Source of the DNA: an uncultured bacterium
GTDB taxonomy: Bacteria > Zixibacteria > MSB-5A5 > CAIYYT01
Direction: 5' to 3'
DNA length: 64,000 nt
Assembly (NCBI GenBank): GCA_963726455.1
Contig: CAVSCK010000005.1
Coordinates: 64,973-128,972, forward strand
Both the position numbers and the translations under genes were made by a program. Within the stretch, counting starts at the first letter, position 1; each line of letters starts with the position of its first letter. The notes under the pieces were generated by a model. That model did not search any database. It was not told the DNA's origin and saw only the letters and a program-made list of their open reading frames with translations. Shown here piece by piece: positions 3,031-64,000 of this stretch.

Positions 3031-3264
3031 TTAAGAGTGTGGTGGCAACGGCCACCTCAGATCAGTGTTCCGGCTTCGGCTGACACAATGCTCGTCGGTT
3101 TGGACGCCGGACCCCTATCGGTCTCGTCGTCGGCGGCTTGAAATGCTCCCGATACAGAGGAAAGAGGGCTATACAAAGTACCTTGCTTTTTGGTGTGTTT
3201 TTTGTATGTTTTTGGTAACGCAAACATATCTTTTTGCTGTCGTTAGTTTAACACCGGGGAGGTT

Positions 3265-9950: not shown

Positions 9951-12872
9951 TCAGGGTTTACAAGGCGCCGGTCCACCGCTGAAGATGTAGGAAATCAGAT
10001 AGACGGCATCTGAGATATCAACCGAATGATCACAGTTGGCGTCACCGGCATCCAGCGGATTCGGCGCCGCGCCACCGGAGAAGATATAGCCGATAAGAAA
10101 GACCGCATCGGAGATGTCGATCCCGCCGCTACCGTCAGCATCACCGGGCACGAACAGCGGTCCTGCCGTGTACAAGTGGGCTGCCGCCCAACGTTTGGCC
10201 TTGACCATGTTACCCTTCAAATCTGCGAGTGTGCCGTCACGCACGGTTGACAGGGCGCTGTAAATGACGATTGTATCCTGTGGCCCGATGTTCCGATTGT
10301 TGATGAAGGTCATGGTGGCAAACTGGTCGGTGGGATTTGTCTCGGGCAAATAACCCGGATTCTGCATCAAGCCGTAAATCTGCACGGCAACGAAGCCGTT
10401 GGTGCCATAGATGTACTGAGAGGAACTGGCCGTAAAGGCACCATAAGGCACTTTGCTAGTGTCAATCACGCCGTCGGCATCGCTAATGCCAAGCAGTGCC
10501 TGTCCCGCAAACCGGCGCGAGCCATCGATACAGTCGAAGCCGCCGCCCTGCTGATATATCATCTTCGTACCGGCATCGAAGCCCCCGACATTTTCCTGAG
10601 GATTGCCGCCGCAGTCCCAGTCGATGGCATCACCGATGCCGATTCCCGTGTGCACGAGGGTATCGAACGAGGTGATTTCGACTCGCTGGATGACGAAGTT
10701 GCAGCTATCGGGATGCTTGGGCGCATACCACGATTTCTTGATTGCAAGGAATTGATCGAGGGTGACGAAAGTGCCGCTCCGGAAGACCTCGTAAGCGCCT
10801 GAATCCGCAGTCGGCGCCATCGGTTCACCGTGGCGAGGCGTGCGGTAGCTATTGCCGTAATACATGTTCCAGTTCGCGGCATACCATGGGCCATTTATGT
10901 AAGTGACCAGCAGCGTGCCGTCCCAAAGATAGTTGTTGACGCAATCGCCCTGACCAAGGTAATCAAGGGCAGCTCCGTACGTGCCTGCCTTGCCGAAATT
11001 GCCCAGATTATTTACGATCAATTTGGTGCAGGATGTGGCGACGGTATCATAGACTTGCACGTTGAAGAGTGCACAGGCGTCGCCAAAGCCATCCCCGTCG
11101 GAATCGGTTTGATCGGGATTGTATACATCGGGACAGTTGTCTATCTGGCACGTTGCTGAAGGATAACCGGGATTACCGAAGCCGTCGGCGTCGGGATCAA
11201 CGCAGTTGTCGCAGGCATCGCCGATGTTGTCATGGTCTATGTCGGCCTGATCAGGATTAGCGTAACCCGGGCAGTTGTCGCAAGCATCACCGGCACCATC
11301 TGCGTCACCGTCGGCCTGGTCGGGATTGGCAACCGCGGGGCAGTTGTCGGTGGCATCGGAAAAGCCATCGCCGTCTTTGTCGAAATCGACGTAGGCGTAC
11401 AGGCGGTCGCCACGGATTGAATCAACTCTGACTGTGATGCCGGTGGGACCATAATAGCCGGCGCTGCTGGGAAATGTAGTCGGACTGAAGGTCGACTGAC
11501 CGGGAACGTTATCGGAGAAGAGCGCGCCTTTGCGGGATTCGTAGGGGTACCACCACTGGGCCGTATCGCTTACGTGTCCACCGGGATTGTTATGATAGTC
11601 ATACGCTGGGTTGTAGCCGGCATCCTCGACCGCGACCGTGTAATGAGGATATGTTGGCGTTCCGTCGTTGATGCGGAAATAATCGGCTTTGAGCGAGTCA
11701 TGGACATGCGTTATTAGCAGCCCGCGATCGAGCGGATCGCAGCCAAGCGACAGGTCGGGATAGAAGTAACAACTGAAATCCGAATCAAACTTGTCGAACT
11801 GTGCCGTCGACTGAGGATTGCGATACTCCAGCATGAAGTATTCCCCCTGCGCCATGTTGATCGGCAGAATGTAATAGGAGCTGTCCTTCGTCGTCTCGCA
11901 GTTGCGAATCATGAGTGATGGATATTCTCGCTGCTCCAACACAGTCGGTGTAATCCAACCGGCCTCTTTCTTGGTCCAGCCGCAGTGATGCGACGGGATG
12001 ATGGACTTGATCGAGAGAATCCCGTAACCGCCATAACCCATTGTGCACCAGTCATAGACCGGATGATCGTTGTCGTCGTTCGGAGTAAAGAAAGTGGAGA
12101 CGGTGAGCTTCTCATCGTAATCGTACAAGTCGGGAACTCCCACGTTGTGTGAGAGCTCATGGCAGAACACTCTGATATAGTTCAAGGTATCAACGCCGGT
12201 AAAGTCGTAGGGGCTGTATGGGTCATGCAAAGGGCAGGTTTCCGGGCAGGTATTCACGCGCGGAAAGCGTTTGCCGTCAAACGGTCCATAGCCGGTACCG
12301 GGTGAGCCGACCTGGGCATATGACCAGATGTCCATCGGATTGTGCGAGTCCTCCTGGCCTCTGCCGGCGTGAATAAATGTGACGGCATCGACATCGCCGT
12401 CGTTGTTGCCGTCAAATTGCGAATAGTCAATTACGGGATTAAGTTCCGCCAAGAGTGAACCAAAGTTGACATAGCCATTGTAGCTGCCTTCGGTGTGCCA
12501 CTCAATCACCTGACCCGTTACAGTCAATTGACCGTATGACGCCTCATGAAAGTAGTCCGCTACGGAACCCATCGGCAACACATTGCGCGAAAAATAGAGC
12601 GTATCGAAGGCGCCGCGAGTCCAGGTGTGGGGGCGGTTGGTCCAGTCGATCAGAATTACGAGTACCTTGAGCGTGTCGCCCGTGAAACGAAATTCGTCCA
12701 TCGACCTTATTTCATCCGGAGTCAGCGTGGACGGGGGCATTTTACCGAATTGCCTCTCCATCACTTCATTGGGTACGTCGAGGATTCGCACCTTCGACAT
12801 GTCGAAGGCGAAGGATGTAGTAGCGACCAATAGACAAGCCAAGGCCACCAGCCCATTAACCATAGATCTCAT
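9951..12872 (-). CDS. secreted M6-family (immune inhibitor A-like) zinc metalloprotease with thrombospondin type-3-like repeats and C-terminal dockerin-like tandem module
   Basis: Signal peptide from ATG 12872 (AGAGGT upstream); HExxH site [19 protein letters not shown]; repeated DxDGDGxxDxxDNCP calcium-binding units; C-terminus [25 protein letters not shown]...[31 protein letters not shown]. Confidence 0.8.
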
Positions 12873-12984
12873 AGGTACCTCTAATTTCAGTGTCGGCAAG
12901 AAGAATGCTGACAGATGTCGATTCTACAAACGGCTGTATAAAGCGCGATTCGGTTAGCTTAGTATACGCAATTTTGGCGAATTT

Positions 12985-38013: not shown

Positions 38014-38014
38014 A

Positions 38015-39329: not shown

Positions 39330-39330
39330 C

Positions 39331-40530: not shown

Positions 40531-40735
40531 TGATTTCCCCCGCAGCGTTCATCAATTCTGAATTCAGCCGACTAATGATAACGACTGGACTTCCTAATAT
40601 CACTGAATTGCAGACAGCGATCATCAACTATTCACCACTTGTCCGATCCGCGCCGTTCCTGCCAACCATTCTGGCCGGCAGGCGGATCGTCGCGAATCAC
40701 TTTTCCGCATTGAAAATAGCTTAGTTTGGGCCAAA

Positions 40736-40775
40736 TGTCACGGGGAAAAAGTGACAGATTGTGAAAAAAATCGCA
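40736..40775 (-). promoter_or_regulatory. paired inverted repeats upstream of the hydrogenase operon (candidate CRP/FNR-type operator)
   Basis: TGTCAC-N9-GTGACA at 40736-40756 followed immediately by TGTGA-N6-TCGCA at 40760-40775 (one mismatch to TGTGA-N6-TCACA); about 200-240 nt upstream of the first hydrogenase gene. Confidence 0.4.
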
Positions 40776-40911
40776 ATCTCTGCACGCAATGCGTTGCGCC
40801 ACAACATATTCTGCATTAAAGAAATAACTATAATGTGGCAAACCGAGGAAGGCAAGTGAGACTTCCAAAGCCATAATGTCTATCGGGAGGAATTTAGTTG
40901 TCCAGTGTTAA

Positions 40912-40954
40912 TGCTGCAAATGAAAACGGACGAACATTGCTTGTCCGTCCGTTT
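40912..40954 (-). terminator. rho-independent terminator downstream of the cytochrome gene
   Basis: AACGGACGAACA / TGTCCGTCCGTT stem (one mismatch); on the minus strand followed by TTTTCATTTG. Confidence 0.55.
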
Positions 40955-40998
40955 AGAAATCTAATCTACGCACCACCAAGCGCTTCGTTAAGCCGTCG

Positions 40999-42546: not shown

Positions 42547-42733
42547 TCTGGTCGATGCTCGCGCCAGAATACTATTCTAAGCGGACAAAATCAAGGGATT
42601 TTTCCCGGCCTGCGAGCGACACAATGCCCGCGAACATTCTCCTGAAGAAAGCACTTGCCAAAGCAGACAAGAACTACTATGTTATGTCGTCGCGAGTCAT
42701 TGACCAGATACAATACCCTGCCGGGAGGACAAT

Positions 42734-43723
42734 ATGAGAAGAGCTGTATTGATCGCGCTTGCCATCGTTTCGTTGTCGTTCATCTCATTTCTGACATCGC
42801 CGCAACCCGCCACTGCCGCCGCGATTGTCGCCGATCACACGACGGTCGCGAAGTTCGCGCAGATTCCGCAGGAATATTTCGACCAGATTCGCGCCAATTA
42901 CCGGTTCTTCTATGGCCACACATCTCACGGCAGCCAGATATTGACCGGAATCGGCATGTTGGCGTACGAGTATCCGCTGCAATGCGGCTCGCCGTCATTC
43001 TTCGAGTACGGCGACGATCTTGGCGCCGCCGGAGACATTACCTGGGTGCAGCCGACGCGCGATTTTCTCAATTCCAACCCGGATTACAATGTCGTGATGT
43101 GGTCATGGTGCGGCGGCGTATCCGACAATACTGAGGCCGGTATTAACAGTTATCTCAACGCGATGGAGCAACTCGAAAACGAATTTCCGAATGTCCGATT
43201 CGTATACATGACCGGCCATCTCGACGGCACCGGCGCCGCAGGAAACCTGTATGCGCGGAACAATCAGATTCGCCAGTGGTGTGCCGCAAACGGGAAAGTG
43301 CTTTTCGATTTTGCCGACATCGAGAGCTACGATCCGGATGGCGCGTATTACCCCGACGGCAGCGACGCCTGCGAATGGTGCTATACTTGGTGCGCTACCC
43401 ACACCTGCACTGACTGCGGAGGAAGTTGCGCGCATTCGCATTGTTTCAATTGCTATCAGAAGGCCAAGGCGTGGTGGTGGATTATGGCGCGTGTCGCCGG
43501 CTGGAACACGGATCCGGTTGGCTGCGGAGACGCCAACTCGGACGGTGGCATTGATATCAGTGACGCGGTATTCCTGATTGCCTACATCTTTTCAGGCGGC
43601 CCGGCGCCAAATCCGCTCAATTATGGCGATGCCAACTGCGACGCAGCCATTGACATCTCCGACGCGGTCTACCTGATAAGCTACATCTTCGCCGGCGGCC
43701 CTGCCCCTTGTGCAAGTTGCTAG
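42734..43723 (+). CDS. secreted protein with Cys-rich N-terminal domain of unknown function and C-terminal dockerin-like tandem module
   Basis: Signal peptide; Cys-rich stretch CEWCYTWCATHTCTDCGGSCAHSHCFNCY; C-terminus [27 protein letters not shown]...[32 protein letters not shown]. Confidence 0.6.
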   Translation: MRRAVLIALAIVSLSFISFLTSPQPATAAAIVADHTTVAKFAQIPQEYFDQIRANYRFFYGHTSHGSQILTGIGMLAYEYPLQCGSPSFFEYGDDLGAAGDITWVQPTRDFLNSNPDYNVVMWSWCGGVSDNTEAGINSYLNAMEQLENEFPNVRFVYMTGHLDGTGAAGNLYARNNQIRQWCAANGKVLFDFADIESYDPDGAYYPDGSDACEWCYTWCATHTCTDCGGSCAHSHCFNCYQKAKAWWWIMARVAGWNTDPVGCGDANSDGGIDISDAVFLIAYIFSGGPAPNPLNYGDANCDAAIDISDAVYLISYIFAGGPAPCASC

Positions 43724-46026: not shown

Positions 46027-47856
46027 TTACACCGGCGGGCAGGCAGCGCATGGCACCGGTCCCCCGCCAAATATGTATTGAATAAGGTACACCGCGTCCG
46101 CGATGTCGATCGACTTGTCACAGTTGGGATCCCCGGCTGTGGCTGTGACCGGCGCCGGTCCCCCCGCAAAAATGTAATTTATGAGGTAGACCACGTCGGC
46201 GATATCGACTCCACCGTCACCGTTGGCGTCGCCGCAAGTGAATTCAACCAGAGTAGTCCCCCACCAAGTGCCCCAGCGCGTGTCAGCAGGGTTCGGTCCA
46301 ACCGGTGTCGCCGCATATTCCTGAATCGTCCAGAAGCTGGTGCTATCCTTGGGGTCTACGACTGTGGCACTAAAATCCCCCCAGCGAACCTCAGTTCCGC
46401 CGAAGGTCTTGGTATAGATGCCCTCGCCGGCCTTGATCGTTGCCACGGTGCTCGTCGTCCCGATTGGATCGGTTGACCTGCGGCCGGTGTAAGCCGCTTC
46501 GACAAAGATGTTGGGATTCGAATGCGAGAACCCGAGAAAGACATCATTCCCGGAATTGACTGCAATACTGGGAAAGAACAGAAAGTCATTCGTGCCCATA
46601 TCAACCACGCCCGATTGCACAATCGGATTCGGTAGCGTCGCCGGATCGAGTTCATACCAGAAGACGGAAACGTGGTTGGGAGAATTCACCGGCAGGCCTG
46701 CACTGTGCGTGCACCAAATCCTGCCGTTACGGAAGACGGCATTGAGCATACGCGAATCGTTGGTTGACACCAGTGTGGCTGTGCCCTGTTGCTTGGCGTC
46801 TGGCTGATTATTCGAGAAATTATGTGCTACCGAGAATAACCCCGAGCCGCCAATCGTCGAACCAGGCACAGCGGCCCAAACCGGCGCCGGTCCCGTACCG
46901 GTGATTTGTGTCAATCTGAGGAGAGCTACTCCTCCCGAGGTGAATCCGGCATTATCGACCAGATATAGTGTCGGCTCATTACCGAATGTCTGACAGACGC
47001 GAAGCGCGAAACCTGAACCGACATTGCCGAAATTGTCTGATCCCACCGGAAAACTCGTGAAGGTCAACGGTCCCCCGGCAAGCGCCGTCGATTTTTCAAT
47101 TACCCACATCGACGTTCCGGAGAAAGTATTCCCCGTCACTTTGAACATGTTGGCCGTAATGGCAATCCAGGTTCCATTATACCCGATGTCCGGATAATCA
47201 GCCCAGCTAATGTGCGAGGTGTCCGCAGGTATGCGGTAGAATTTCCAGGTCCCCATCGGATTGGCGCTGTCGCTGACCGCCATCACCACAGCGGAATTCA
47301 CGGTTTGGAAGTCCGCGATGGACGACGCATACCAACGGTTGACGCTCGGGTCGTACAGAACGTGGGGATCACTAACATTGGTCGAACCCGTTGGCGACCA
47401 GAATGTCGGATAGGAGATTGTACTCAGGATATTCCCAAACTTGTCCTGCACCCTGATTTGTGAATTCAGCATCGTCATCACCCGGTTCAGACTTACGGCG
47501 CCGTGCGAATCCGGAGGGATCACGTGAAGGTTATCGGGCAAGGCCTGGAAATTTCTGACTACCGGCGGCACCTGCATCGGCGAAAGAAATTGCTCTGTCC
47601 CCAGACTCCCTGCACTACCCAACTTACCCAGTGGCCCACCAACCTCTCTCGGCGCCGGCATCAGCAATAGCGGTTTTACTTCCTGCACCTCCGCGGTCTT
47701 TGCCAGCGGTGCCCTCGCCTCCATGTTCTCCAAGTCCTGCCAGCTCACCTGAGCTACCGGATCAATCTGCATTTGTTGTCCGGAGACGCCAAAACTTGCC
47801 GCAGTCAGCAACAGTATTAGAACGAGCGTCGCCCGCGACGTTTGCCATATCGACAT
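46027..47856 (-). CDS. secreted protein of unknown function (paralog of 48164-50620) with C-terminal dockerin-like tandem module
   Basis: ATG 47856 with AAGGAG upstream; signal peptide; ~500-aa N-terminal domain shared with the next gene (...RWGDFSATVVDP...WGTWWGTT); C-terminus CGDANGDGGVDIADVVYLINYIFAGG...[32 protein letters not shown]. Confidence 0.6.
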   Translation of the reverse strand: MSIWQTSRATLVLILLLTAASFGVSGQQMQIDPVAQVSWQDLENMEARAPLAKTAEVQEVKPLLLMPAPREVGGPLGKLGSAGSLGTEQFLSPMQVPPVVRNFQALPDNLHVIPPDSHGAVSLNRVMTMLNSQIRVQDKFGNILSTISYPTFWSPTGSTNVSDPHVLYDPSVNRWYASSIADFQTVNSAVVMAVSDSANPMGTWKFYRIPADTSHISWADYPDIGYNGTWIAITANMFKVTGNTFSGTSMWVIEKSTALAGGPLTFTSFPVGSDNFGNVGSGFALRVCQTFGNEPTLYLVDNAGFTSGGVALLRLTQITGTGPAPVWAAVPGSTIGGSGLFSVAHNFSNNQPDAKQQGTATLVSTNDSRMLNAVFRNGRIWCTHSAGLPVNSPNHVSVFWYELDPATLPNPIVQSGVVDMGTNDFLFFPSIAVNSGNDVFLGFSHSNPNIFVEAAYTGRRSTDPIGTTSTVATIKAGEGIYTKTFGGTEVRWGDFSATVVDPKDSTSFWTIQEYAATPVGPNPADTRWGTWWGTTLVEFTCGDANGDGGVDIADVVYLINYIFAGGPAPVTATAGDPNCDKSIDIADAVYLIQYIFGGGPVPCAACPPV

Positions 47857-48086
47857 AAGCTTGTCTCCTTTCATCCCTTTGGACACTTCTCTTGTTATAA
47901 AGAAACCGATTCGCTCCCTCACAGTTCCCTGTGATCGGTTGTCATGAGTCTTTCTGGCTCTACGATTAAGGTACGCGGCACCCTGCCCCATTTGTGGCGT
48001 CTAATTGACCTCCATAAACACAAGTTCCTGGCGGAGTAAGCGGGCTGATTTCTGGGGGCAAGAGGCGATTCTTAAGGGTCTGCGCT

Positions 48087-48163: not shown

Positions 48164-49020
48164 TCAACAGCCGGCACACGGAGCCGGACCGCCGGAGAAG
48201 ATGTACGCGATCAAGTAGACGGCGTCCGAGATGTCAATTGAATGATCACAGTTGGCATCTCCCGCCTCCACCGGATTTGGTGCCGGACCGCCAGAGAAAA
48301 TGTAGGCGATCAAATAGACAGCATCCGAAATGTCAACGCTGCCACTGCGATCGGCATCACCGCAAACGTAAGGCGGATCGACGACTCTAAGGTTGACCGC
48401 TACTGTGTCTGTCAACGCCGGAGCGCTGCCGTCCTGCAAAGCGATCGAGAAATAGAAGGTAGATTTATAGGTTGGAGTACCTGTGATCGTCCCGACCAGG
48501 CCATCATTAAACGTGAGGCCGTACGGCAAGTCTCCACCGACGAATGACCAGGTGTAGGGTGGAATGCCGCCCGAGTGCAGGAACTGGAATTCGTATGGCT
48601 TGTGATAATAGGCATCGGGCAGAGCTGGGTTCACATGCAGCAGTGGCTCGATGTGCAGGAATCCGTCGCATGCGTCGCCGACGCCGTCCGTATCCGAATC
48701 CCATTGATCATTGTTGCTCACCAGAGGACAATTGTCGCAGGCATCACCAAACAAGTCACCATCAGCGTTCACTTGCGACAAATTGGGCGTATATGGGCAA
48801 TTGTCGACTGCATTCAGAATGCCATCATTATCAATATCGGGATCGCAAACATCACCCAGACCGTCACCGTCAGTATCCTTTTGATTCGCGTTGGCCACTG
48901 TCGGACAGTTGTCGCAGACATCACCGATGCCGTCGTGGTCGGTGTCAAGCTGATTGGCATTTGCCGTCATCGGGCAGTTGTCCACGGTGTCTGCAACTCC
49001 GTCTCGATCCATATCTACCA
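48164..49020. repeat. copy A of a ~850-bp near-identical 3' coding module (TSP3 + Ig-like + dockerin-like)
   Basis: Long runs nearly identical to 51059-51920 when aligned by eye; encoded peptides differ only at scattered positions. Confidence 0.8.
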
Positions 49021-50620
49021 TAGTCGTTCCCCACCACGTGCCCCAACGGCTGTCATCGACGCCCGGACCGACTTTCATCCCCGCATATTCCTGAATGGTC
49101 CAGAAGCTCAGACTATCCATCGGATCTACCACGGTAGCGCTGTAGTCTCCCCAGCGCACGCGTGTGCCACCGAAATTCTTGGTGTAGGTCGACTCACCTA
49201 ATTTGAGCACCTTAATCGGCGCCATGGTGCCCAGCGGGTCGGATGCCTGGCGGCTGGTGTATGCCGCCTGCGCGTAGATCGTCGGATTGGAACGCGAAAA
49301 CCCAATCATCGCATCATCATTGGCATTGGCATTTATGCTCGGGTAGAACAGATATGTATTCGCGCCCTCATCCAGTACGCCCGATTGCACGATCGGATTC
49401 GGCATTGCCGTCGGGTCGAGTTGATACCAGAATACGGCATCGCGATTGGCTGAAGATACCGGCAAACCTGCGGCATGCGTGCACCAAATCTTGCCGTTGC
49501 GGAAGACTGCATTAATGATTCGCGAATCATTGGTTGTGATCTTGGTCGTGGTACCAAGCTGGGACGCATTGAGCATTGAGCCGTTGAAATTATTGGCAAC
49601 CGCGAACAGCCCGGATTCGGCAATAGTGGATCCCGCTGTCGCGTTCCAGACCGGCGCCGGTCCGGTGCCGGTTATCTCAGTTATGCGCAGTTGATGGATA
49701 CTGGAGATCGTGATATTGTTATTGTCAACCACATACAACTTCGGCTCTGAACCGTAGGTCTGACATACGCGCAGAGTCCAACCGTTGAATCCACCGAAGA
49801 TTCCTGATCCCACCGGAAAATAAGTGACTGTCAGTGGGCCGCCCGAAAGCGCTGTGGATTTGTCGACCACCCACATCGCTGGTCCCGCCTGAGATCCGCC
49901 GGCAACCGGAAACATATTTGCAGTCAGCGCGATCCAGGTGTCGTTATAGCCAATGTCCGGATAGTCCGCCCAGTTGATGTTGCTCATGTCTGCCTTGATC
50001 GTGAAGTACTTCCAGACGCCCATTGGATTACCATTGTCCGTCACCGCCAACAGCACTTCTGAACTCGCCGACTCGTAATTGGCGATGGAGGTGGCGTAAA
50101 ACCGCCCTGTGCCCGGATCGAACAGTACGCGCGGATCGCTTAGCGTTGAGGCCCCGACCGGCGCCCAGAATGCTCCGTACGAAATCGTCGAGAGAACCGT
50201 GCCCATGCGATTTTGCACCCGCACTTCGGAATTCAGGAATGTCATGATGTATGAAACACCGACGCCGCCGTCGGTATCGGGAGGAATAACAGCGCCGTTA
50301 TCCGGAATCGCCTGGAAACTTCTCACCACCGTGGGCGCTTGCACATTCTGGCTTACACCTGCGACACTAAGCGCATCCAGAATGTTGTTTTGACCGGTCG
50401 GTTTTGCTATCTCTGTTTCTGCAGGCATCAGCATCAGCGGCGGCACTCTGTGAACCTGCTTTTGCGCCGGCGTCATATTCTGGTCTATGGCCATCAGGTC
50501 ATTCCAGCTCACCGATGCAGCAGGTGACAGAGTCACTCTCTGACCGGTCACAGCCAATAGTGATGTGATTGAGGTCAACGAAAGAAACAGAAATACAACG
50601 AACATTCGCTTTGCACTCAT
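48164..50620 (-). CDS. secreted protein: unknown N-terminal domain (paralog of 46027-47856), thrombospondin type-3-like repeats, Ig-like domain, dockerin-like tandem module
   Basis: Signal peptide [23 protein letters not shown]; TSP3-like DxDxDGxGDxCDNCP units; Ig-like region [21 protein letters not shown]; C-terminus ...[32 protein letters not shown]. Confidence 0.65.
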
Positions 50621-50689
50621 GGCAAAGACTCCTTTCCTGGCACTAGCACCCTAGTTCCGTAATTGCAGTAGATTTCCTTCCGGTCCGTT

Positions 50690-51058: not shown

Positions 51059-51920
51059 TCAGCACCCCGCACATGGCGCCGCGCCACCACTGAAGATGTA
51101 TTGGATCAAGTACACCGCATCCGAGATGTCGGCTGTATGATCGCAGTTGGCGTCTCCCGCCTCTGCCGGGTTGGGCGCCGGACCACCGGCGAAGATGTAA
51201 GCTATCAAATAGACAGCGTCCGAGATGTCGACGCTGCCGCTGTGGTCGGCATCCCCGCAAACGTAAGGCGGATCGACGACTGAAAGAGTGAGTGAGACCG
51301 TGTCTGTCAACGCCGGGACGCTGCCGTCCTGCAGAGCAATCGAGAAATAGAAAGTAGATTTATAGGTCGGTGTACCGGTGATCGTACCGGTCAAACCATC
51401 ATTAAACGTGAGGCCGTATGGCAAATCCCCGCCTACAAAAGTCCAGTTATATGGGGGCGTGCCGCCGGCGTGCAGAAACTGGTAGGTATATGGCTTGTGG
51501 TAGTAGGCATTGGATAATATAGGATGCAGGTTCAGTTCGGGCTCGATGTGTACTGAGTCGTCGCACCAGTCGCCGAGTCCGTCCGCATTTGAGTCCCACT
51601 GATCGTTGTTCGCCAAAAGCGGGCAATTATCGCAGGCGTCGCCGAGGCTATCGGCATCGCTGTTCTCCTGACCCGGATTGACGGCGTACTTGCAATTGTC
51701 GGCGGCGTTAGGCAATCCGTCGTTGTCAATATCGGGATCGCATGCATCGCCCAGGCCGTCGCCGTCGACGTCGTTCTGAGTCGCATTGACCACAGTCGGG
51801 CAGTTGTCACAGGCATCGCCGATACCGTCATTATCGGTATCGAGCTGGTTGCTGTTGGCCAGACTCGGGCAATTGTCAACCGTATCAATAACCCCGTCGG
51901 CATCGAAATCGCCCACAACG
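51059..51920. repeat. copy B of the ~850-bp near-identical 3' coding module
   Basis: See copy A at 48164-49020. Confidence 0.8.
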
Positions 51921-53452
51921 CCGACCTTCAAATTGGCAATCATTGTTGAGGCGCATGACGACGAGAGGACTTTAACTTCCACCAAAGTTGGCGAACCGGT
52001 GTAGGAATTGCTGTTCGGAGCACTGGCCCCGTTAAATGTCTTGTTAATCCATAGATCGCCGGCTTGCGTGGGCGGATTGTTGTCCGCACACTCGATATCG
52101 ACCCAGCGGTGAGTATCGTTCGAGTTATTGTTCTGGGTGTCATCGATATGCCAGATCGCGATTCCGCATCCGGGAAGGTAGGCATCAAAGCCAACTTGTT
52201 GCCGATTCTCTACGAGAAAGTATTGAGTACTGGGCAATACGCTGCTTCTGAGCTTAAAGCATGACTGATTGGTTTCCGCTTGATCGAGATGAACGCCGTA
52301 GGCATTGACTGACGGCTGAGTCACCGGAAGCCAACCTTTCCGGATCTTACACCAGGCACTCATGTGCGCCGGAGATGCACCGTTCTGGCCCGGACCATTC
52401 CAACTTCCTCCCGCCATCAAACACCAGTTGCCGATTCCATCGCTGCTGTAATCAGTGTCATAAAGATCGGGAAGTCCGATGGCATGCCCGTATTCGTGCG
52501 CGAAGACGCCGATCGTTGAACGTACGCCCGACCAGACCATTTCCGGTTCCATGGTGTAACCACTGACCGTCTTGCCGCTCGCCGAGATGGAGGGGGAAAG
52601 ATGACCGGAATGTGACCAGGGATAATTGGTATAACCAGCTTCGGCGCCCGGCCCGACGTGTACGATAAACAGACCGTCTACGATGCCGTCATTGTTGTTA
52701 TCGAATGGCGCAAAATCGACTCCCGCGTCGCGGGCTGCGGTCACGGCCTCGGCGGCCAATATGGCGGCCCGCCCCATCCCGGAGGCATAGCCATAGTAGT
52801 TTCGATTCTGGCTCGCGGTGTAAAATCCTACGACCGTGCCCGTCACCGTGAAGGCATCGTATGATGTCTCCAGATAGAATTTGTGCAAGGAACCCAAATC
52901 GAAATTCGCGCCGTTGAATAACGAGTCGAAATCGCTTGGCGGGTAAGTATTGCCTTCATCCGGATACTTGATGAGAATCACCAGCACGTTGTTTGTCGTC
53001 GTTCTGGTCGCGCGCTGAGTCAGAGTCGGATCATCCGGGAACGAATAAAAGGACGGATCAGGTCTTCCGACCGTACTGGTGGCTGCCAGACTAAGCGGCA
53101 TCTGGGCCAAAAAACTTCTCTCGGCGCCGGATCGCCTGTCCGCCGCGGTGGCTCTGAAATTCGATGCCTTGAGGTTTCCGTCTGCATCCAGAACGGCATA
53201 GCAATACCAGCCGTCAGTATCCCGGGCGACAGTGTATCCGTCCTCGGTAATCATACGTCCGTTTCTTTCATCACCAATGACCCTAAGAGTGAGCTTTGAT
53301 ACTCCGTCCGGCTGGGTCACTTCAAACGCCCGATCGGGATTTGCCGGGACAGACAGCGCAGGTTGAGCAATCAAGACCACGCAAAAGGCCATCATCGTCA
53401 GCAAGTGCCCGAGCATCGGCCAGGCGTGAGCAATAGCGCTTCTCTGCTTCAT
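51059..53452 (-). CDS. secreted M6-family zinc metalloprotease with TSP3-like repeats, Ig-like domain and dockerin-like tandem module
   Basis: Signal peptide; HExxH site [19 protein letters not shown]; C-terminal ~280 aa almost identical to those of 48164-50620; ends ...[32 protein letters not shown]. Confidence 0.8.
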
Positions 53453-53544
53453 CGATTTTTCTCCATTAATATGAAATCATCGTTATTCACCGGGGATAAT
53501 TCTTTCCGAGACATCGAGATGACTGGGTACATCTGCCAAAACAG

Positions 53545-53810: not shown

Positions 53811-56800
53811 CTAACACCCTGCACACGGCGCCGGTCCACCGGCGAAGATGTACTGTATCAGATAGACCACGTCTGAGATGTCCACCGCCTGATCGCAATT
53901 GGCATCACCGGCCGCAATCGGATTCGGCGCTTGCCCGCCGGCGAAAATATACTGAATGAGAAAGACAGCATCCGAGATATCAATTGCCCCGTCACCGTTG
54001 GCATCACCGCAAAGGTAAGTCGGCACAGTTTCGTAGATGGTCAGGAACGTATCAGCAGGAATCGACGTAAATACCCGAACGGTATCAGAAGGCCAGCGAG
54101 CAATCAGAGAGTCGATCATCGTGTTCGACCCCAGTCCGAATGCGGCTATCGGCGGGCTCTGATTCCATCCCCCGGAAACCGTCGTGATTTCGCGAATCTG
54201 CTGCTTGCCTCCAGCAACGATGCGGACTCGCGCTCCGATGCTATTCTTGTTGGATGTCGTGCCGACAAGTTTCGCCTGCAGCCAATGATTATTGTCGCCA
54301 ATCTCGTTTCGAAGGAGCCGACTGCGGCAATTGTATCCGTACATATTCGACAGGTAAATGTCCAGATCGCCGTCGCGATCATAATCGGCCCAGACGCCAC
54401 CCCGACCGGTGCAACCCAAATCGGTAAGAGGATTGATCAGGTTTCCGGTATAGGCCACGGCAAAGTTACCGCTCCCGTCGTTGCGGAAGAGCTTGTTGGC
54501 TTCATTGGAACCGTTCGTTACGAAAAGATCCAAATCACCATCATTGTCGTAATCGCCCCACGCACAGCCCTGCGTGTAATCCCAAGCAGTCATCACGGCG
54601 GGCGTCACGTCCGTGAAGACTCCGTTCCCATCGTTACGAAACAACTTGTCGCTCAGCCCCGACCAGTAGACGGCAACAAACAGGTCGAGATCTCCGTCGT
54701 TGTCATAGTCGCCCCAATCCGCTGCGAAACTATGGGAGGCAATCGCCAGAGCTGGAGGTGTGACGTCGGTAAAGGAGCCGCCGTCATTGCGCAACAGTCT
54801 GTTCGGACCGTTGAAGTTTACGATGAATACGTCGGGGTCATTGTCGTTATCATAGTCGGCCCAAGTCGACATATGAGTACTAAACGTATCTCCCAGGGGG
54901 CCGCTAGTAGCGTCAACGAATGTTCCAGCGCCGTCGTTACGAAACAGCTTATTCGCTGAAGTCAGTTGCGATAGATACAGATCGAGGTCACCGTCCGTGT
55001 CGTAGTCGACCCAGGCGGCACCACTGCCATTGTTAGCATCATTTAGAGGCGCGCTGGAAACATCTGTAAAGGCGCCTCCGCCATCGTTGCGATAAAGCTT
55101 GTTAGCTCGGCTATCGTTGCGGGAGACATAGATGTCGACATCTCCGTCGTTGTCGTAGTCGCCCCAGACTCCGACTATTCCAGTCGCCGCAGCGCCCATG
55201 CTATTTGGAGTAACCTCCACGAAAGAGCCGGCATCATTCCTGAACAGATGGCTGGAGTCCGGGTCGTACATCTGCGTCAGTAGAAGATCGAAATCGTTAT
55301 CATTATCGTAATCCGCCCATGCTGCCGACGAGATTGAGCCGTATCGTGACAAAACTCTGGGAGTGACGTCGTTCCATTCTGGCGGTGCTGAAATGAATGG
55401 AAACGCGGCCAGCAAATTCGGTCTGCCGCCGATGTTCCCAGCCGGAGGCGTGACTTGTGCCGTAGCGGTATTTTTGAGAACCGTGCGCAGAATCGCTGGA
55501 GTGAGGGTCCCGCCCAGTCCGCCGACTCCCTTCCAGCGGCCCACACAGCACGCCACTGCGCCGGCAACAATTGGAGATGCGCTTGACGTGCCCGCGAAGA
55601 CGCTGGTGTATGCGTAATCAGTGCCATCGGCATTGTACAGATCTCCATAACCCGTGGTCACGACGTTCTCGCCCCAACCTTGAAGATCATAGCGAGTGCC
55701 GTAGCTGGCAAACGACAGTCGCTGCAGGTCGCCTTCCACATACGTGCCACCCGGATAAACACCACTTGCTCCGACAACAATTGCTCCCGATCCATTTGGA
55801 TGCCAGTTGAGCATGTCAGTATCATAGGCGCCATTTCCGCCGGCTTCGACCACATGAATCCCGTTTGTTACCGCGTTTACAATGGCGGTGAAGACGGGAT
55901 TCCATGACTGATTGTTCACGTCGCCCCACCATTCTATGGGGATATAAGACCCTCCGCCGTAGTCCCATTGCTGTTCGAGCAGGATAATATCGCCGGCATT
56001 CAGGCTGGCAGTCGCCAGCGCAATGGCGCCAGCAACATTCCAGCTCGGCGTGGGACTTCCATAGTAAGTGCCGCATGTCTTGAGATTCGCACCGTAGCAG
56101 ATTCCGGTAGTGCCCCAGCCGTTATTGTCCGCGACCATAACTCCGATGACGGCAGTCCCATGATCGTCGTCGCTGAAAGGATCGACGACATTGCTGTTTA
56201 TCTGCGACCCCACTACCTTACTGATGTCTGCATGATTGTAGTTCCAGCTATATTCCAGGTCACAGACCGTGACCCCGGAACCGTTACCCCCTGTTTGCGT
56301 CCACGCGTATTGCGCATCAATCCCCACCGGAGCTGAACTCGCCGGACGCATGTATCGCTGGCCGGTGTCATAAGGGGGCGGTATCATCGGCAGCATCATT
56401 GGTTTGGGAACCGGACGCGCCCACATGATTTCGGGTAGAAACTCGAGATCGCGGCAGAGCCCCCAAAGATCATGGCCTTTGCCAAGGCGTAATCGGTAGA
56501 TGTTGTTGAGATTGTACACCGGCTGTCCCGAGTTCTGCTCGCCTACGGCTTGCATCTCATCGAGCTTCTCCTCCGAAACATTGCACGTGCGCTGCCATTC
56601 GACCGGCCCCACCGCGGCAAGCGTGCTCAACACGGAACTCAGGGACCTACCAGTAATATCCACCGGCACTCCCAGTCGTAATCTTACAGTCAGGTATGGC
56701 TCGAAGATCACCTCGATAAGGTCATCTTCATGTCCATATTCTCCGACGGCCTGCCTGCTCACCGACTGCGGCCCGACCGCCAGTGCCTCCGGATCCACGG

Positions 56801-56909
56801 CGATACTATTTCCGAAAGTCGGGGTGATAATCACGAGCCCTACCAGGAACGCCGCCACCAGTGAGCAGACGTGCGGAACTGTTGACCTGCAATTCACAAT
56901 AACCTCCAT
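53811..56909 (-). CDS. secreted S8 subtilisin-like serine protease with FG-GAP/VCBS repeats, ASPIC/UnbV-like domain and dockerin-like tandem module
   Basis: Signal peptide from ATG 56909 (alternative start 57035); S8 triad regions (VTVCDLEYSW, DDDHGTAVIG, GTSSASPIVAG); multiple WGDYDNDGDLDLFV repeats; C-terminus [26 protein letters not shown]...[32 protein letters not shown]. Confidence 0.85.
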   Translation of the reverse strand: MEVIVNCRSTVPHVCSLVAAFLVGLVIITPTFGNSIAVDPEALAVGPQSVSRQAVGEYGHEDDLIEVIFEPYLTVRLRLGVPVDITGRSLSSVLSTLAAVGPVEWQRTCNVSEEKLDEMQAVGEQNSGQPVYNLNNIYRLRLGKGHDLWGLCRDLEFLPEIMWARPVPKPMMLPMIPPPYDTGQRYMRPASSAPVGIDAQYAWTQTGGNGSGVTVCDLEYSWNYNHADISKVVGSQINSNVVDPFSDDDHGTAVIGVMVADNNGWGTTGICYGANLKTCGTYYGSPTPSWNVAGAIALATASLNAGDIILLEQQWDYGGGSYIPIEWWGDVNNQSWNPVFTAIVNAVTNGIHVVEAGGNGAYDTDMLNWHPNGSGAIVVGASGVYPGGTYVEGDLQRLSFASYGTRYDLQGWGENVVTTGYGDLYNADGTDYAYTSVFAGTSSASPIVAGAVACCVGRWKGVGGLGGTLTPAILRTVLKNTATAQVTPPAGNIGGRPNLLAAFPFISAPPEWNDVTPRVLSRYGSISSAAWADYDNDNDFDLLLTQMYDPDSSHLFRNDAGSFVEVTPNSMGAAATGIVGVWGDYDNDGDVDIYVSRNDSRANKLYRNDGGGAFTDVSSAPLNDANNGSGAAWVDYDTDGDLDLYLSQLTSANKLFRNDGAGTFVDATSGPLGDTFSTHMSTWADYDNDNDPDVFIVNFNGPNRLLRNDGGSFTDVTPPALAIASHSFAADWGDYDNDGDLDLFVAVYWSGLSDKLFRNDGNGVFTDVTPAVMTAWDYTQGCAWGDYDNDGDLDLFVTNGSNEANKLFRNDGSGNFAVAYTGNLINPLTDLGCTGRGGVWADYDRDGDLDIYLSNMYGYNCRSRLLRNEIGDNNHWLQAKLVGTTSNKNSIGARVRIVAGGKQQIREITTVSGGWNQSPPIAAFGLGSNTMIDSLIARWPSDTVRVFTSIPADTFLTIYETVPTYLCGDANGDGAIDISDAVFLIQYIFAGGQAPNPIAAGDANCDQAVDISDVVYLIQYIFAGGPAPCAGC

Positions 56910-57113
56910 GCAAATAGACAGTATCACGGTCAATCCGTCCGGCAGACGGCTCGATCGCGTGCCCCTGTAGTAGTTGTTGTCAGCAGAGATGTCGTTGTCT
57001 ATGTTAAAGATACTGCCCTTACGGAGAAATGTCAATTGGAAAAGTGGAGTCGCGGGTACTGATTGCCGGTTCTTCTAACCGTTGATTGGGCATTCGGTTG
57101 CGCTCATAGGCAC

Positions 57114-62152: not shown

Positions 62153-62285
62153 AATAAAAACAGGCGTACAATTTATGCAAAATGGACAATAAGTCAACCA
62201 AATAAATGTATATTGCCGACAATTCCCTCCAATTCGATATACGGCAATACATTAGAGACTTCGCACCATGGCTGCCATTTTGGCA

Positions 62286-62321
62286 TAAAAAAAGCTCCTC
62301 GTGACAGATCACGAAGAGCTT
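62286..62321 (-). terminator. rho-independent terminator downstream of the 62341-63330 gene
   Basis: Imperfect stem AGCTCCTCGTGA / TCACGAAGAGCT; on the minus strand followed by TTTTTTTT. Confidence 0.7.
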
Positions 62322-62340: not shown

Positions 62341-63330
62341 TTACTTCAACAGTAACATCTTCTTAGTTTCGGTGAAGTCTCCTGATGACATGCGATAGAG
62401 GTAGACACCGGAGGCCACCGAAGAACCATTCTGGTCGTTGCCGTCCCATTCGACGCGTTTGTAGCCGGCTTTCTCGTAATCGTCAAGCAAAGTCCTGACC
62501 TTCTGGCCAAGCATGTTGAACACTTCAACTTTCACATTGCCGGATTTGGGAATCGCAAACTGAATTGTGGTCGAAGGGTTGAACGGATTGGGCACATTCT
62601 GGCTCAACTCATACTTCGTCGGAAGATTCAAATCAGCATTGCCTTCCACCGGTAACGCGATGTCGCATGGAGGAGTGAACTGCTTGCACATGGCGAATTT
62701 CGGGGTAGACTTCTTTGTCACTGTGTTGGACGCGGAGACGCCCGGTACTGGGGGCAAAGTCCAGGGAAAGATATTGGTCTCAATGAACGGGCCGGCAGGC
62801 GGATACAAAGAGACTGAGTCCAGCCGTACCACTTGCCGAACGGTGTCAATCATCTTGATGATTATACTGCCAAGATATTGTCCGGTATCACCGGTACAGG
62901 CCGGAATAGGGGATTCACCCGAAAAGTCAGCCCAACCGAACAAGAGTGAGTCTCCCGCCGCCGACACCTTTAATTGCATGGAGCCGCCGAACAGGATGGC
63001 ATTATTCTTTTTGAAGTTCTTGCTGAACTTGAGTTGTTGACCGTTCTGCCTCACTCCGAAATTGAACCCGCCAACGGGGTAATCGTTAAACAGATAGACC
63101 GGTACGTAGAAAGAATCGCCCTTGGAAGTCGGCGAAAACGTTATACAGACGGGGCATCCAATTCGAAGCGTATCGCAAATACCCAGATCCAACTCCTTCA
63201 AGTTGGTGCTGTCGGCGTCCGCGATGCCTCCGTGTACCACATAGCACGTGTCGACCGCGTAGACGCTGGCGCCCGGCACCACCGCCGCAACCGATAGCAC
63301 GAATAGCACTAGCAAAACCTTCAACTTCAT
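62341..63330 (-). CDS. secreted protein with candidate cohesin-like domain and T9SS C-terminal sorting domain
   Basis: ATG 63330 with GGAGG upstream; signal peptide; cohesin-like segments GDSFYVPVYLFNDYPVGGFNFGV and LFGWADFSGESPIPACTGDTGQYLGSIIIKM; C-terminus NVPNPFNPSTTIQFAIP...GVYLYRMSSGDFTETKKMLLLK. Confidence 0.55.
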   Translation of the reverse strand: MKLKVLLVLFVLSVAAVVPGASVYAVDTCYVVHGGIADADSTNLKELDLGICDTLRIGCPVCITFSPTSKGDSFYVPVYLFNDYPVGGFNFGVRQNGQQLKFSKNFKKNNAILFGGSMQLKVSAAGDSLLFGWADFSGESPIPACTGDTGQYLGSIIIKMIDTVRQVVRLDSVSLYPPAGPFIETNIFPWTLPPVPGVSASNTVTKKSTPKFAMCKQFTPPCDIALPVEGNADLNLPTKYELSQNVPNPFNPSTTIQFAIPKSGNVKVEVFNMLGQKVRTLLDDYEKAGYKRVEWDGNDQNGSSVASGVYLYRMSSGDFTETKKMLLLK

Positions 63331-63518
63331 TTTACCTCCTATGTAGGGAAACATATTCCATTCACTGCCTGACCTTCGCATTCCAATCTCTCCTTCCTAC
63401 CGCGTCAAGGATAACAGCGTTATACCTTAACTTTCTCCACTACCCACGAACGCAAAGTATTCCGAATATATATCCGTTTCCGAAACTCCAGTCAACAATT
63501 TTTTCAAAAATAATTGCC

Positions 63519-64000
63519 TCAGCAACCCGCGCATGGCGCCGGACCGCCGGAGAAAATGTACGATATCAGATAAACAGCATCGGAAATATCAATCGAGCCG
63601 TCGCAGTTCACCTCTCCAGTGCTATATGGCGAAGGCGCCGGGCCGCCGGAGAAGATATAGGCGATCAAATAGACGGCGTCGGAAATATCAACCCCGCCAT
63701 CTCCGTTAGCGTCGCCGCAGACTGCGGGACTGCCGACGGTGACGCACGCACCCTGAAACGCCCCCTGATAAGTAAATAAACCGTGCGTGAGCGACTGCGT
63801 GAAGCTGGAATAAACCGTGTCGCGAATGCAGATTTTCTGGTTTTTCAACGCATTAGTAACCTGGAATCTGACTTTGCAAATCACGCCGCTGCCTGCCGCC
63901 AGAGGCGCGTGTCCCCCGCCCATGTTCGCTCTCAGGTCAAGGGTGGCTACCTTGCCGCCGTTGTAGATGTTGCTGAAGATCGCCTGCTCAAAGCCGGCGC
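63519..64000 (-). CDS. C-terminal part of a protein with cohesin-like segment followed by dockerin-like tandem module (5' end beyond window)
   Basis: Frame stays open to the window end (...FEQAIFSNIYNGGKVATLDLRANMGGGHAPLAAGSGVICKVRFQVTNALKNQKICIRDTV...); ends [26 protein letters not shown]...[32 protein letters not shown]. Confidence 0.5.
   Translation of the reverse strand, partial: AGFEQAIFSNIYNGGKVATLDLRANMGGGHAPLAAGSGVICKVRFQVTNALKNQKICIRDTVYSSFTQSLTHGLFTYQGAFQGACVTVGSPAVCGDANGDGGVDISDAVYLIAYIFSGGPAPSPYSTGEVNCDGSIDISDAVYLISYIFSGGPAPCAGC

What the first reader, a model, noticed from the sequence alone, without database searches (positions are those of the whole stretch)
62341..63330. Cohesin-like domain fused to a T9SS C-terminal sorting domain
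This protein combines a signal peptide, cohesin-like segments (GDSFYVPVYLFNDYPVGGFNFGV; LFGWADFSGESPIPACTGDTGQYLGSIIIKM) and a canonical T9SS CTD (...KMLLLK). T9SS cargo is normally exported across, and often anchored to, the outer membrane, so this would be a surface-anchored docking platform able to display dockerin-tagged proteases. The dockerin proteins themselves lack a T9SS tag, so how they cross the outer membrane is an open question.
Basis: partly seen in the sequence, partly recalled or inferred. Interest (0 to 1): 0.8.

Follow-up and report, generated by a model that had tools for sequence, protein, structure and literature searches.

The report
Surface cohesin anchor with T9SS tail
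This gene encodes a small secreted protein with one very divergent cohesin module and a type IX secretion sorting tail, most likely an outer-membrane docking post for the dockerin-tagged proteases encoded next to it; similar systems have already been predicted in related uncultured bacteria, so it is a good example, not a new kind.

Summary
Window 62341-63330 (-) is a real 329-aa gene with its own AGGAGG ribosome-binding site and a strong terminator. It has a Sec signal peptide. Residues 247-329 are a type A T9SS C-terminal domain, scoring above the curated cut-offs.

Pfam's Cohesin model misses residues 27-227. Three results still identify this stretch as a cohesin:
- A family profile hits only cohesins among PDB sequences.
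- Distant relatives pass Pfam Cohesin on the same segment.

The window holds seven proteins with near-identical C-terminal dockerins, including S8 and M6 peptidases. Each of the six with a complete N-terminus has a signal peptide, and none has a T9SS tail. In all four related loci with enough upstream sequence to read, a dockerin-ending gene sits directly upstream of the cohesin-T9SS gene.

Best reading: a single-cohesin anchor, like Clostridium OlpA/OlpC but attached through T9SS instead of SLH. Binding, anchoring and the presence of T9SS machinery are inferred, not shown. The concept was already published in silico for Cloacimonadota in 2021, so this is a new member of a known kind. Interest is moderate, about 0.4.

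The parts
63335..63340 (-). Shine-Dalgarno AGGAGG, 4 nt upstream of the ATG at 63330
   Evidence: Read directly from the DNA.
63256..63330 (-). Sec (SPase I type) signal peptide, residues 1-25: MKLKVLLVLFVLSVAAVVPGASVYA
   Evidence: By inspection: positive n-region, hydrophobic core, V-Y-A cleavage motif. No signal-peptide predictor was available.
62650..63252 (-). Divergent cohesin module, residues 27-227. It carries conserved cysteine pairs (C59/C215 and C62/C222) that probably staple the first strand to the C-terminal strand.
62593..62649 (-). Linker, residues 228-246 (VEGNADLNLPTKYELSQNV)
   Evidence: Lies between the two domain matches.
62344..62592 (-). T9SS type A C-terminal sorting domain, residues 247-329, ending KKMLLLK. 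Stop codon at 62341-62343.
   Evidence: TIGR04183 42.4 bits (cut-off 23). PF18962 32.2 bits (cut-off 27). FlgD_ig 34.8 bits. CHU_C 29 bits.
62292..62321 (-). Intrinsic-terminator-like hairpin (13 bp stem, then TTTTT) 20 nt after the stop codon
63522..63998 (-). 3' end of the gene directly upstream. It runs off the window and ends in a type I dockerin (...[13 protein letters not shown]).
   Evidence: Dockerin_1 34.4 bits. Its pre-dockerin segment is 32% identical to the S8-PKD-dockerin peptidase at the same position in L005.
53814..57074 (-). Candidate ligand: S8 subtilase + FG-GAP repeats + UnbV_ASPIC + C-terminal dockerin. Signal peptide, no T9SS CTD.
51062..53476 (-). Candidate ligand: M6 metallopeptidase + TSP3 repeats + He_PIG + C-terminal dockerin
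48167..50650 (-). Candidate ligand: TSP3 repeats + He_PIG + C-terminal dockerin
46030..48000 (-). Candidate ligand: protein of unknown family with a C-terminal dockerin
42704..43720 (+). Candidate ligand: small (about 329 aa) secreted protein with a C-terminal dockerin
9954..12923 (-). Candidate ligand: M6-like + TSP3 + C-terminal dockerin. The tail is PAPCKP and the first and last cysteines are missing.
3247..5448 (+). Second T9SS type A cargo in the window: fn3-containing, 734-aa stop-to-stop frame (about 727 aa from the likely ATG), tail RKMLLLK. It shows that the sorting signal is used repeatedly in this genome.

Best explanation
The gene encodes a monovalent anchoring scaffoldin adapted to a diderm cell. 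The steps below are marked as shown or inferred.

1. Export across the inner membrane (inferred from sequence). The 329-aa precursor is exported by Sec through an SPase I signal peptide.
2. Folding (fold shown by modelling, disulfides inferred). Residues 27-227 fold in the periplasm into a type-I-like cohesin beta-sandwich, probably stapled by two disulfides (C59-C215 and C62-C222).
3. Crossing the outer membrane (inferred from established T9SS biology). The type A C-terminal domain (residues 247-329) directs the folded protein through the type IX secretion translocon. As in Porphyromonas and Flavobacterium, the tail is then removed by the PorU sortase and the protein is attached to a surface lipopolysaccharide, or it is released.
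4. Docking (inferred from homology, co-occurrence and conserved gene order). On the surface the cohesin binds, in a Ca2+-dependent way, the near-identical duplicated dockerins at the C-termini of many secreted proteins of this genome. Seven such proteins lie in this window, including S8 and M6 peptidases. The effect is to hold proteolytic and adhesive proteins on the cell.

Functionally it corresponds to Clostridium thermocellum OlpA/OlpC (one type I cohesin plus a cell-surface anchor), with the T9SS C-terminal domain replacing the SLH module.
For: - T9SS CTD above curated cut-offs.
- Signal peptide and RBS-supported start.
- Cohesin homology by profile: all 10 PDB sequence hits are cohesins, best E 3.1e-4.
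- Transitive link: Pfam Cohesin passes its cut-off on the same segments that match the family profile in P0018 (599-728 vs 615-717, 42 bits), P0043 (350-468 vs 356-448, 34 bits) and P0076.
- Ligands: seven Dockerin_1 proteins in the window with almost identical Ca-loop and helix repeats. Only one cohesin-like module is present in the window.
- Gene order: the gene directly upstream ends in a dockerin in the window, in L005 (S8+PKD+dockerin, only 36% identical cohesin), in L006 and in L009. Two S8+PKD genes lie upstream on the P0003 contig.
- Wider family: it includes multi-cohesin scaffoldin-like proteins and carries either a T9SS CTD (33 of 107) or a dockerin (47 of 107).
- Published precedent for the same logic in Cloacimonadota (PMC8542988).
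Against: - No binding data and no complex model.
- Pfam's Cohesin model does not hit the protein itself.
- No T9SS core gene in the 64-kb window, and the rest of the genome could not be inspected.
- The dockerin proteins have Sec signal peptides but no known route across the outer membrane, so co-localisation with the cohesin on the surface is assumed.
- One cohesin per protein against many dockerin proteins means the anchor would be limiting unless it is highly expressed or other cohesins exist elsewhere in the genome.
- Whether the C-terminal domain leads to covalent anchoring or to release is unknown outside the Bacteroidota.
Confidence: 0.62

Rival explanations
1. Export adaptor (piggyback) model. 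The cohesin-CTD protein meets the dockerin proteins in the periplasm. Because T9SS moves folded cargo, it carries the CTD-less proteins across the outer membrane as a cohesin-dockerin complex. The cohesin would then be a secretion adaptor as well as an anchor. This would answer the first reader's open question.
For: All six dockerin proteins with a complete N-terminus have Sec signal peptides and none of the seven has a T9SS CTD. The cohesin-CTD gene sits directly downstream of a dockerin-protein gene in four divergent loci. Otherwise orthologous cohesin proteins carry either a CTD or a dockerin, and both forms occur in the same MAG (L001+L002, L006+L003). That T9SS transports folded proteins is established knowledge, not tested here.
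Against: No precedent for hitchhiking through T9SS is known to me. The cargoes are large (800-1090 aa, with beta-propellers). The same gene order is explained equally well by plain surface docking. A type II secretion system or another route elsewhere in the genome was not excluded.
Confidence: 0.1
2. Cohesin-fold module with a different ligand. The N-terminal domain keeps the cohesin beta-sandwich but binds something other than a dockerin, for example a polysaccharide, another surface protein or a host or prey surface. The protein would be an ordinary T9SS-secreted adhesin, and the nearby dockerin genes would be coincidental.
For: Pfam Cohesin does not score the protein itself. Identity to solved cohesins is only 8-18%. 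Cohesin-like folds with other partners exist among the structural neighbours, such as the C. perfringens glycosidase modules 2w1n and 2vo8 and the adhesin domain 9ifr. Many family members carry cohesin and dockerin in one small protein, which is hard to reconcile with simple one-to-one docking unless they act as adaptors.
Against: The most conserved motifs of the family (GFSLGF, LxGWxD, IDxDSxF) lie on predicted strands. I infer, without a residue-level test, that these correspond to the dockerin-binding sheet of classical cohesins. The tight and conserved linkage to dockerin genes across genomes and the co-occurrence of the module with dockerins in 47 of 107 relatives point to the classical partnership.
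Confidence: 0.18
3. The C-terminal domain is not a working T9SS signal here. The FlgD-Ig-like tail is only a structural Ig domain, the organism lacks T9SS, and the protein stays periplasmic or leaves by another route.
For: The tail also scores for FlgD_ig (34.8 bits). No T9SS core gene is present in the window.
Against: TIGR04183 scores nearly twice its curated cut-off, and PorU and T9SS-dependent protease models match the same tail. The domain sits at the extreme C-terminus with the typical K-M-L-L-L-K last strand, and the same tail recurs on a second, unrelated protein in the window and on 33 of 107 relatives. Relatives come from Zixibacteria and Ignavibacteria MAGs, which I place in the FCB group from my own knowledge. 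T9SS is described as specific to that group (PMC12398890 highlights).
Confidence: 0.08

Closest known systems
Clostridium (Acetivibrio) thermocellum OlpA and OlpC, single type I cohesin anchoring proteins (PDB 3ul4, 4dh2)
   Different: OlpA and OlpC anchor through SLH repeats to a Gram-positive wall. This protein has a T9SS type A C-terminal domain for a diderm envelope. Identity is only 10-17%. It also has conserved cysteine pairs and an N-terminal Cys-rich extension. Its likely partners include peptidases and adhesin-like proteins, with no cellulase among the seven dockerin proteins in the window.
Cellulosome-like complex predicted in Cloacimonadota 'Ca. Stygibacter' (Williams et al. 2021, PMC8542988)
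   Same: An FCB-group bacterium with a cohesin-bearing protein that carries a conserved C-terminal domain (T9SS) for surface attachment, together with signal-peptide-bearing S8/S53 and C25 peptidases and glycosidases ending in dockerins. This is the same logic, also inferred only from genomes.
   Different: The Stygibacter scaffold is one giant protein (3,755 aa) with tandem cohesins and CBMs that InterPro detects. Here the protein is 329 aa with a single cohesin that Pfam misses. It comes from a different lineage (relatives in Zixibacteria and Ignavibacteria MAGs) and sits in a conserved position next to dockerin-peptidase genes.
T9SS type A cargo proteins of Bacteroidota (e.g. P. gingivalis RgpB; TIGR04183 / PF18962)
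   Same: N-terminal Sec signal, functional domain, and a C-terminal Ig-like sorting domain of about 80 aa above the family cut-offs.
   Different: The passenger is a protein-docking module rather than an enzyme or adhesin. The organism lies outside the Bacteroidota, where cleavage by PorU and attachment to A-LPS have not been shown.
Non-cellulosomal cohesin-dockerin systems (Peer et al. 2009; 'planctosome' of freshwater Planctomycetes, PMC6461901; Archaeoglobus cohesin 2xdh)
   Different: Those reports do not involve the small single-cohesin plus T9SS-CTD architecture or the gene order seen here.
Ruminococcus flavefaciens ScaC-type adaptor (one cohesin + one dockerin)
   Same: Paralogues of this protein (P0005, P0008, L002, L003, L004) have the same cohesin followed by a dockerin instead of the CTD. 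This is a monovalent adaptor architecture.
   Different: The window protein itself has a CTD, not a dockerin. No adaptor role has been tested.

Membership tests
Cohesin domain (Pfam PF00963) | Significant match of the protein itself to the Pfam Cohesin HMM | tested here: not met
   No Cohesin hit at E<=1 for residues 1-329.
Cohesin domain (Pfam PF00963) | Homology to bona fide cohesins through intermediate sequences or a profile | tested here: met
   16 of 107 relatives pass Pfam Cohesin, on the same segments that match the family profile. The 56-sequence profile hits only cohesins among 177,635 PDB sequences, best E 3.1e-4.
Cohesin domain (Pfam PF00963) | Nine-stranded flattened beta-sandwich superimposable on solved cohesins | tested here: met
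Cohesin domain (Pfam PF00963) | Ca2+-dependent binding of a dockerin | not testable with these tools
Cohesin domain (Pfam PF00963) | Dockerin-bearing partner proteins in the same genome | tested here: met
   Seven proteins with Dockerin_1 above cut-off in the 64-kb window, with near-identical duplicated Ca-loop and helix segments.
T9SS type A cargo (TIGR04183 / PF18962) | C-terminal domain scoring above the curated cut-off, at the extreme C-terminus | tested here: met
   TIGR04183 42.4 bits vs 23. PF18962 32.2 bits vs 27. Residues 247-326 of 329.
T9SS type A cargo (TIGR04183 / PF18962) | N-terminal Sec signal peptide | tested here: met
   By inspection only: MKLKVLLVLFVLSVAAVVPGASVYA|VD, after an RBS-supported ATG.
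T9SS type A cargo (TIGR04183 / PF18962) | T9SS machinery (SprA, PorV, PorU, GldK/L/M/N) encoded in the genome | tested here: inconclusive
   None among the window's ORFs. The only hint is a sub-threshold PorT/SprT-like outer-membrane barrel at 2347-3027, 22.6 bits vs 125. The rest of the 667,840-bp contig could not be fetched.
T9SS type A cargo (TIGR04183 / PF18962) | CTD cleavage and covalent attachment to surface LPS | not testable with these tools
   Needs experiment.
Anchoring scaffoldin of cellulosomes (OlpA/OlpC/SdbA/ScaE type) | Cohesin(s) combined with a cell-surface anchoring module | tested here: met
   Cohesin plus T9SS CTD. This is a functional analogy.
Anchoring scaffoldin of cellulosomes (OlpA/OlpC/SdbA/ScaE type) | SLH repeats or an LPXTG sortase signal as the anchor, with cellulolytic enzyme partners | tested here: not met
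   No SLH or LPXTG-type domain in the Pfam or NCBIfam scans. The identifiable partners are S8 and M6 peptidases and repeat proteins; two of the seven carry no identifiable family; none is a cellulase. It therefore works like an anchoring scaffoldin but is not a member of the clostridial families.

The most novel reading that the evidence does not exclude
The single-cohesin T9SS protein is a secretion adaptor. It captures CTD-less, dockerin-tagged proteins in the periplasm and carries them through the type IX translocon as a folded complex, then holds them on the surface. Cohesin-dockerin paralogues extend the chain. This would be the first 'hitchhiker' route through T9SS. It would explain why whole sets of exoproteins in Zixibacteria-like bacteria carry dockerins instead of T9SS tails.
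Probability: 0.08. Interest if true: 0.85.

Novelty: new member of a known kind. Interest (0 to 1): 0.4.

Why it matters
The result shows how a diderm, uncultured FCB-group bacterium could build a cellulosome-style display system for proteases. The anchor is a 329-aa protein that standard domain annotation misses.

It extends the T9SS-anchored cohesin idea from Cloacimonadota to a Zixibacteria/Ignavibacteria-related lineage. It also provides a compact cohesin/dockerin pair, both apparently stapled by disulfides, that could be tested biochemically or used as an orthogonal docking pair.

It sharpens a real open question, namely how dockerin proteins that lack a T9SS tail cross the outer membrane. 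It does not answer that question. The general concept has been published, so the advance is incremental.

Tried and rejected
- Direct Pfam and NCBIfam scans of the protein gave no cohesin hit. phmmer and a 9-sequence profile against PDB sequences gave nothing for the N-terminal part.
- AlphaFold with the 9-sequence full-length alignment gave an unusable model, pLDDT 41.8. Only the 56-sequence domain alignment worked.
- Fetching the source contig by exact protein look-up failed for the target and for the GH35-like neighbour. The upstream dockerin gene therefore could not be completed and the genome could not be searched for T9SS genes.
- Organism identification failed. Exact look-ups gave unnamed singletons on a 667,840-bp NCBI/ENA contig. 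A ClpB search was uninformative: the nearest relatives at 80-87% identity are unnamed, and named hits at about 72-76% come from many phyla. The record of the closest long contig carries no name.
- I tested whether the truncated upstream ORF, or the equivalent region of the L005 S8 peptidase, holds another cohesin. There was no support.
- I scanned the whole window with the family HMM for more cohesins. Only the target hits.
- The afdb50 fold library was not available.
- Literature searches for Zixibacteria with dockerin or with type IX secretion returned nothing.
- I considered a chance ORF or mis-called gene and rejected it: the gene has an RBS, a terminator, conserved homologues and a confident fold.

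Full report
**1. The observation**

The minus strand carries an ORF at 62341-63381. AGGAGG lies at 63340-63335, four bases before that ATG. The longer 346-aa public gene call (P0001) begins upstream. Its seemingly conserved peptide '...YIGGK' in homologues is the translated ribosome-binding site. A 13-bp hairpin followed by TTTTT lies 20 nt after the stop codon, at 62321-62292. The gene is therefore the last, or only, gene of its transcript.

The product begins with a typical SPase I signal peptide, MKLKVLLVLFVLSVAAVVPGASVYA|VD (by inspection).

**2. The C-terminal domain**

Residues 247-329 match the T9SS type A sorting domain above curated cut-offs. TIGR04183 scores 42.4 bits against 23, and PF18962 scores 32.2 against 27. 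The usual overlapping hits are also present: FlgD_ig, CHU_C, and the tails of PorU and T9SS-dependent peptidases.

A second, unrelated protein in the window (3247-5448, fn3-containing) ends in the same tail.

**3. The N-terminal domain**

Pfam and NCBIfam give nothing for residues 1-246. A single-sequence search and a 9-sequence profile search of PDB sequences also give nothing for that region.

- *Close family.* A word-indexed search of 5.8 billion proteins found only nine close clusters of about 320-357 aa. Seven carry the T9SS tail. Two (P0005, P0008) have the same N-terminal domain followed by a dockerin instead.
- *Wider family.* A profile of the domain searched against 1.84 billion representatives found 127 proteins at E<=1e-3 and 54 at E<=1e-10. 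Some have several copies of the module. Of 107 relatives scanned with Pfam, 47 have Dockerin_1, 33 have Por_Secre_tail and 16 pass the Cohesin model.
- *Transitive link.* The Cohesin hits lie on the same segments that match my profile: P0018 599-728 against 615-717 (42 bits), P0043 350-468 against 356-448 (34 bits), and P0076 670-743 against 672-776.
- *Profile against PDB.* A 56-sequence domain alignment (A4) hits ten PDB sequences at E<=10. All are cohesins, the best being 4dh2 at E 3.1e-4, followed by 1anu, 2ccl, 1ohz and 1aoh.

The closest structures are type I cohesins, including the single-cohesin anchoring proteins OlpA and OlpC.

*Cysteines.* Unlike the clostridial modules it matches best (cysteine-poor, from my own knowledge; not tested here), this family has conserved cysteines.
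- C59 (GCP) and C215 occur together in 47 of 52 informative sequences.
- C62 and C222 covary: 11 sequences have both, 32 have neither, and only 2 have one.

This suggests two disulfides tying the first strand to the C-terminal strand, which fits a protein that folds outside the cytoplasm. That reading is an inference, because I had no access to the model coordinates.

**4. Context**

The window is ordinary chromosome. It carries def, tgt, clpB, prs, pst genes, hyp genes and a NiFe hydrogenase, rpoD and htrA.

- *Dockerin proteins.* Seven proteins in the window end in a type I dockerin:
  - an S8 subtilase with FG-GAP repeats;
  - an M6 metallopeptidase and an M6-like protein;
  - TSP3/He_PIG repeat proteins;
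  - two proteins of unknown family, plus the truncated gene directly upstream of the target.
- *Their dockerins.* They are almost identical, following [31 protein letters not shown]...[32 protein letters not shown]. Both repeats are alike and four cysteines are conserved.
- *Their export signals.* All six complete proteins have Sec signal peptides. None has a clear lipobox or a T9SS tail.
- *Cohesin count.* Only one ORF in the window matches the cohesin family HMM.

*Conserved gene order.* The same arrangement recurs in other genomes.
- The cohesin-CTD gene is followed by the same GH35-like gene in L001, L005 and L007, with the same htrA further on in L005 and L007, as in the window. L006 probably shares the GH35-like gene, but it is cut off there and was not annotated.
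- The gene directly upstream ends in a dockerin in the window, in L005 (S8+PKD+dockerin; the cohesin is only 36% identical), in L006 and in L009.
- On the longer contig carrying P0003, two S8+PKD genes precede it.
- Two MAGs each hold both a cohesin-CTD and a cohesin-dockerin paralogue: L001 with L002, and L006 with L003.

Relatives come from Zixibacteria MAGs, an Ignavibacteria MAG and unnamed sediment bins. The organism of the window itself could not be named.

**5. Mechanism**

Shown by computation: signal peptide, cohesin fold and homology, a T9SS type A C-terminal domain, many matching dockerins, and a conserved dockerin-gene to cohesin-gene order.

Inferred from established T9SS and cellulosome biology: the protein is exported by Sec, folds in the periplasm, crosses the outer membrane through T9SS, and is attached to the surface (or released) after the tail is removed. 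Its cohesin then binds the dockerins of secreted peptidases and repeat proteins in a Ca2+-dependent way. It would thus be the diderm counterpart of OlpA/OlpC.

The cohesin-dockerin paralogues would act as monovalent adaptors or chain extenders.

*Weak points.*
- No binding evidence.
- No T9SS machinery gene in the window. There is only a sub-threshold PorT-like barrel at 2347-3027.
- No known route for the dockerin proteins across the outer membrane.

*Rivals.* I give the anchor model 0.62. The alternatives are:
- a non-dockerin ligand for the fold, 0.18;
- a piggyback export role, 0.10;
- a non-functional tail, 0.08.

**6. Comparison with what is known**

Cohesin and dockerin modules outside cellulosomes are long known (Peer et al. 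2009, cited in PMC8542988).

Williams et al. 2021 (PMC8542988) described genomes of the Cloacimonadota genus 'Ca. Stygibacter'. [quoted passage not shown] They also encode S8/S53 and C25 peptidases and glycosidases that end in dockerins. The same paper cites a 'planctosome' for polypeptide degradation in Planctomycetes.

Public databases already hold Pfam-detectable Cohesin + Por_Secre_tail proteins, such as P0071 and P0018. No paper in the library links Zixibacteria with dockerins or T9SS.

The features new to this case are:
- the small single-cohesin form;
- divergence beyond Pfam's reach;
- the cysteine staples in both cohesin and dockerin;
- the conserved position next to dockerin-peptidase genes;
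- the paired CTD and dockerin paralogues.

These are refinements of a known kind of system.

**7. Verdict**

The docking function is plausible and circumstantially supported but untested. Novelty: a new member of a known kind. Interest: 0.4.

The most novel reading still open is that the cohesin-CTD protein carries CTD-less dockerin proteins through T9SS. I put its probability at about 0.08. It would be of high interest if true.

Noticed in passing
window 9954-12923, 42704-43720, 46030-48000, 48167-50650, 51062-53476, 53814-57074, 63522-63998: The dockerins carry four conserved cysteines: C before the first Ca loop, C at position 4 of the second loop (GDANCD), and the terminal PCAGC. The two repeats are almost identical ([19 protein letters not shown]). 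This suggests a disulfide-stapled, symmetric (dual-binding-mode?) dockerin type. NCBIfam's 'GC-type dockerin' model, tested on only one of the seven (the 63522-63998 protein), matches weakly: 16 bits vs 29.
   Followed up: partly
P0005, P0008; L002 9735-10535; L003 677-1588; L004 257-1180: Paralogues with the same cohesin module end in a dockerin instead of the T9SS CTD. Among relatives of 400 aa or less, a regex count gives about 26 with a CTD tail and about 22 with a dockerin tail. Two MAGs hold one of each form, so anchor and adaptor appear to come as a pair.
   Followed up: partly
window 59981-62197 (-); L001 2261-4513; L005 10936-13146; L007 1141-3393: A GH35/GH42-like protein (exo-beta-D-glucosaminidase-like, GLMA_2nd domain, no evident signal peptide) always lies directly downstream of the cohesin-CTD gene, with htrA further on in the window, L005 and L007 and rpoD after htrA in the window. 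A terminator and a promoter-like site separate it from the cohesin gene, so the link may be positional only.
   Followed up: partly
window 2347-3027 (+): A 227-aa outer-membrane beta-barrel lies directly upstream of the second T9SS cargo gene. It scores 52.9 bits on the TDE1717 family model (cut-off 135), with a weak PorT/SprT (T9SS component) match of 22.6 bits (cut-off 125).
   Followed up: no
window 63331-63381 (-): Public gene calls extend this gene and several homologues about 17 codons upstream. The 'conserved' peptide SEWN..YIGGK is the translated RBS and leader region, not protein.
   Followed up: yes
window 63467-63495 (-): TTGACT-17 nt-TATATA lies in the 137-bp gap between the upstream dockerin gene and the cohesin gene. 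It is a possible own promoter. The scan tool did not report it because the second hexamer ends in A.
   Followed up: partly
window 63522-63806 (-); L005 9183-9461 (aa 691-783 of the 7113-9644 protein): The roughly 90 residues before the dockerin in the truncated upstream gene resemble the same region of the L005 S8-PKD-dockerin peptidase (32% over 93 aa). They also weakly resemble part of the multi-cohesin protein P0071. No family could be assigned.
   Followed up: partly
window 42704-43720 (+): A small secreted dockerin protein with a sub-threshold match to the haem-binding haemophore domain MHB (19 bits vs 27.4). It sits next to a multihaem cytochrome gene (41002-42576).
   Followed up: no
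window 30663-42576 (-): A cluster of hypE, hypD and hypF, a NiFe-hydrogenase large subunit, a 4Fe-4S protein and a NapC/NirT-type multihaem cytochrome. This points to hydrogen metabolism in the organism.
   Followed up: no
P0018 (1083 aa, NCBI MFH2057187.1): A relative combines three copies of this cohesin type, two dockerins and a T9SS CTD in one protein. This is a true multivalent T9SS-anchored scaffoldin in the same family.
   Followed up: partly
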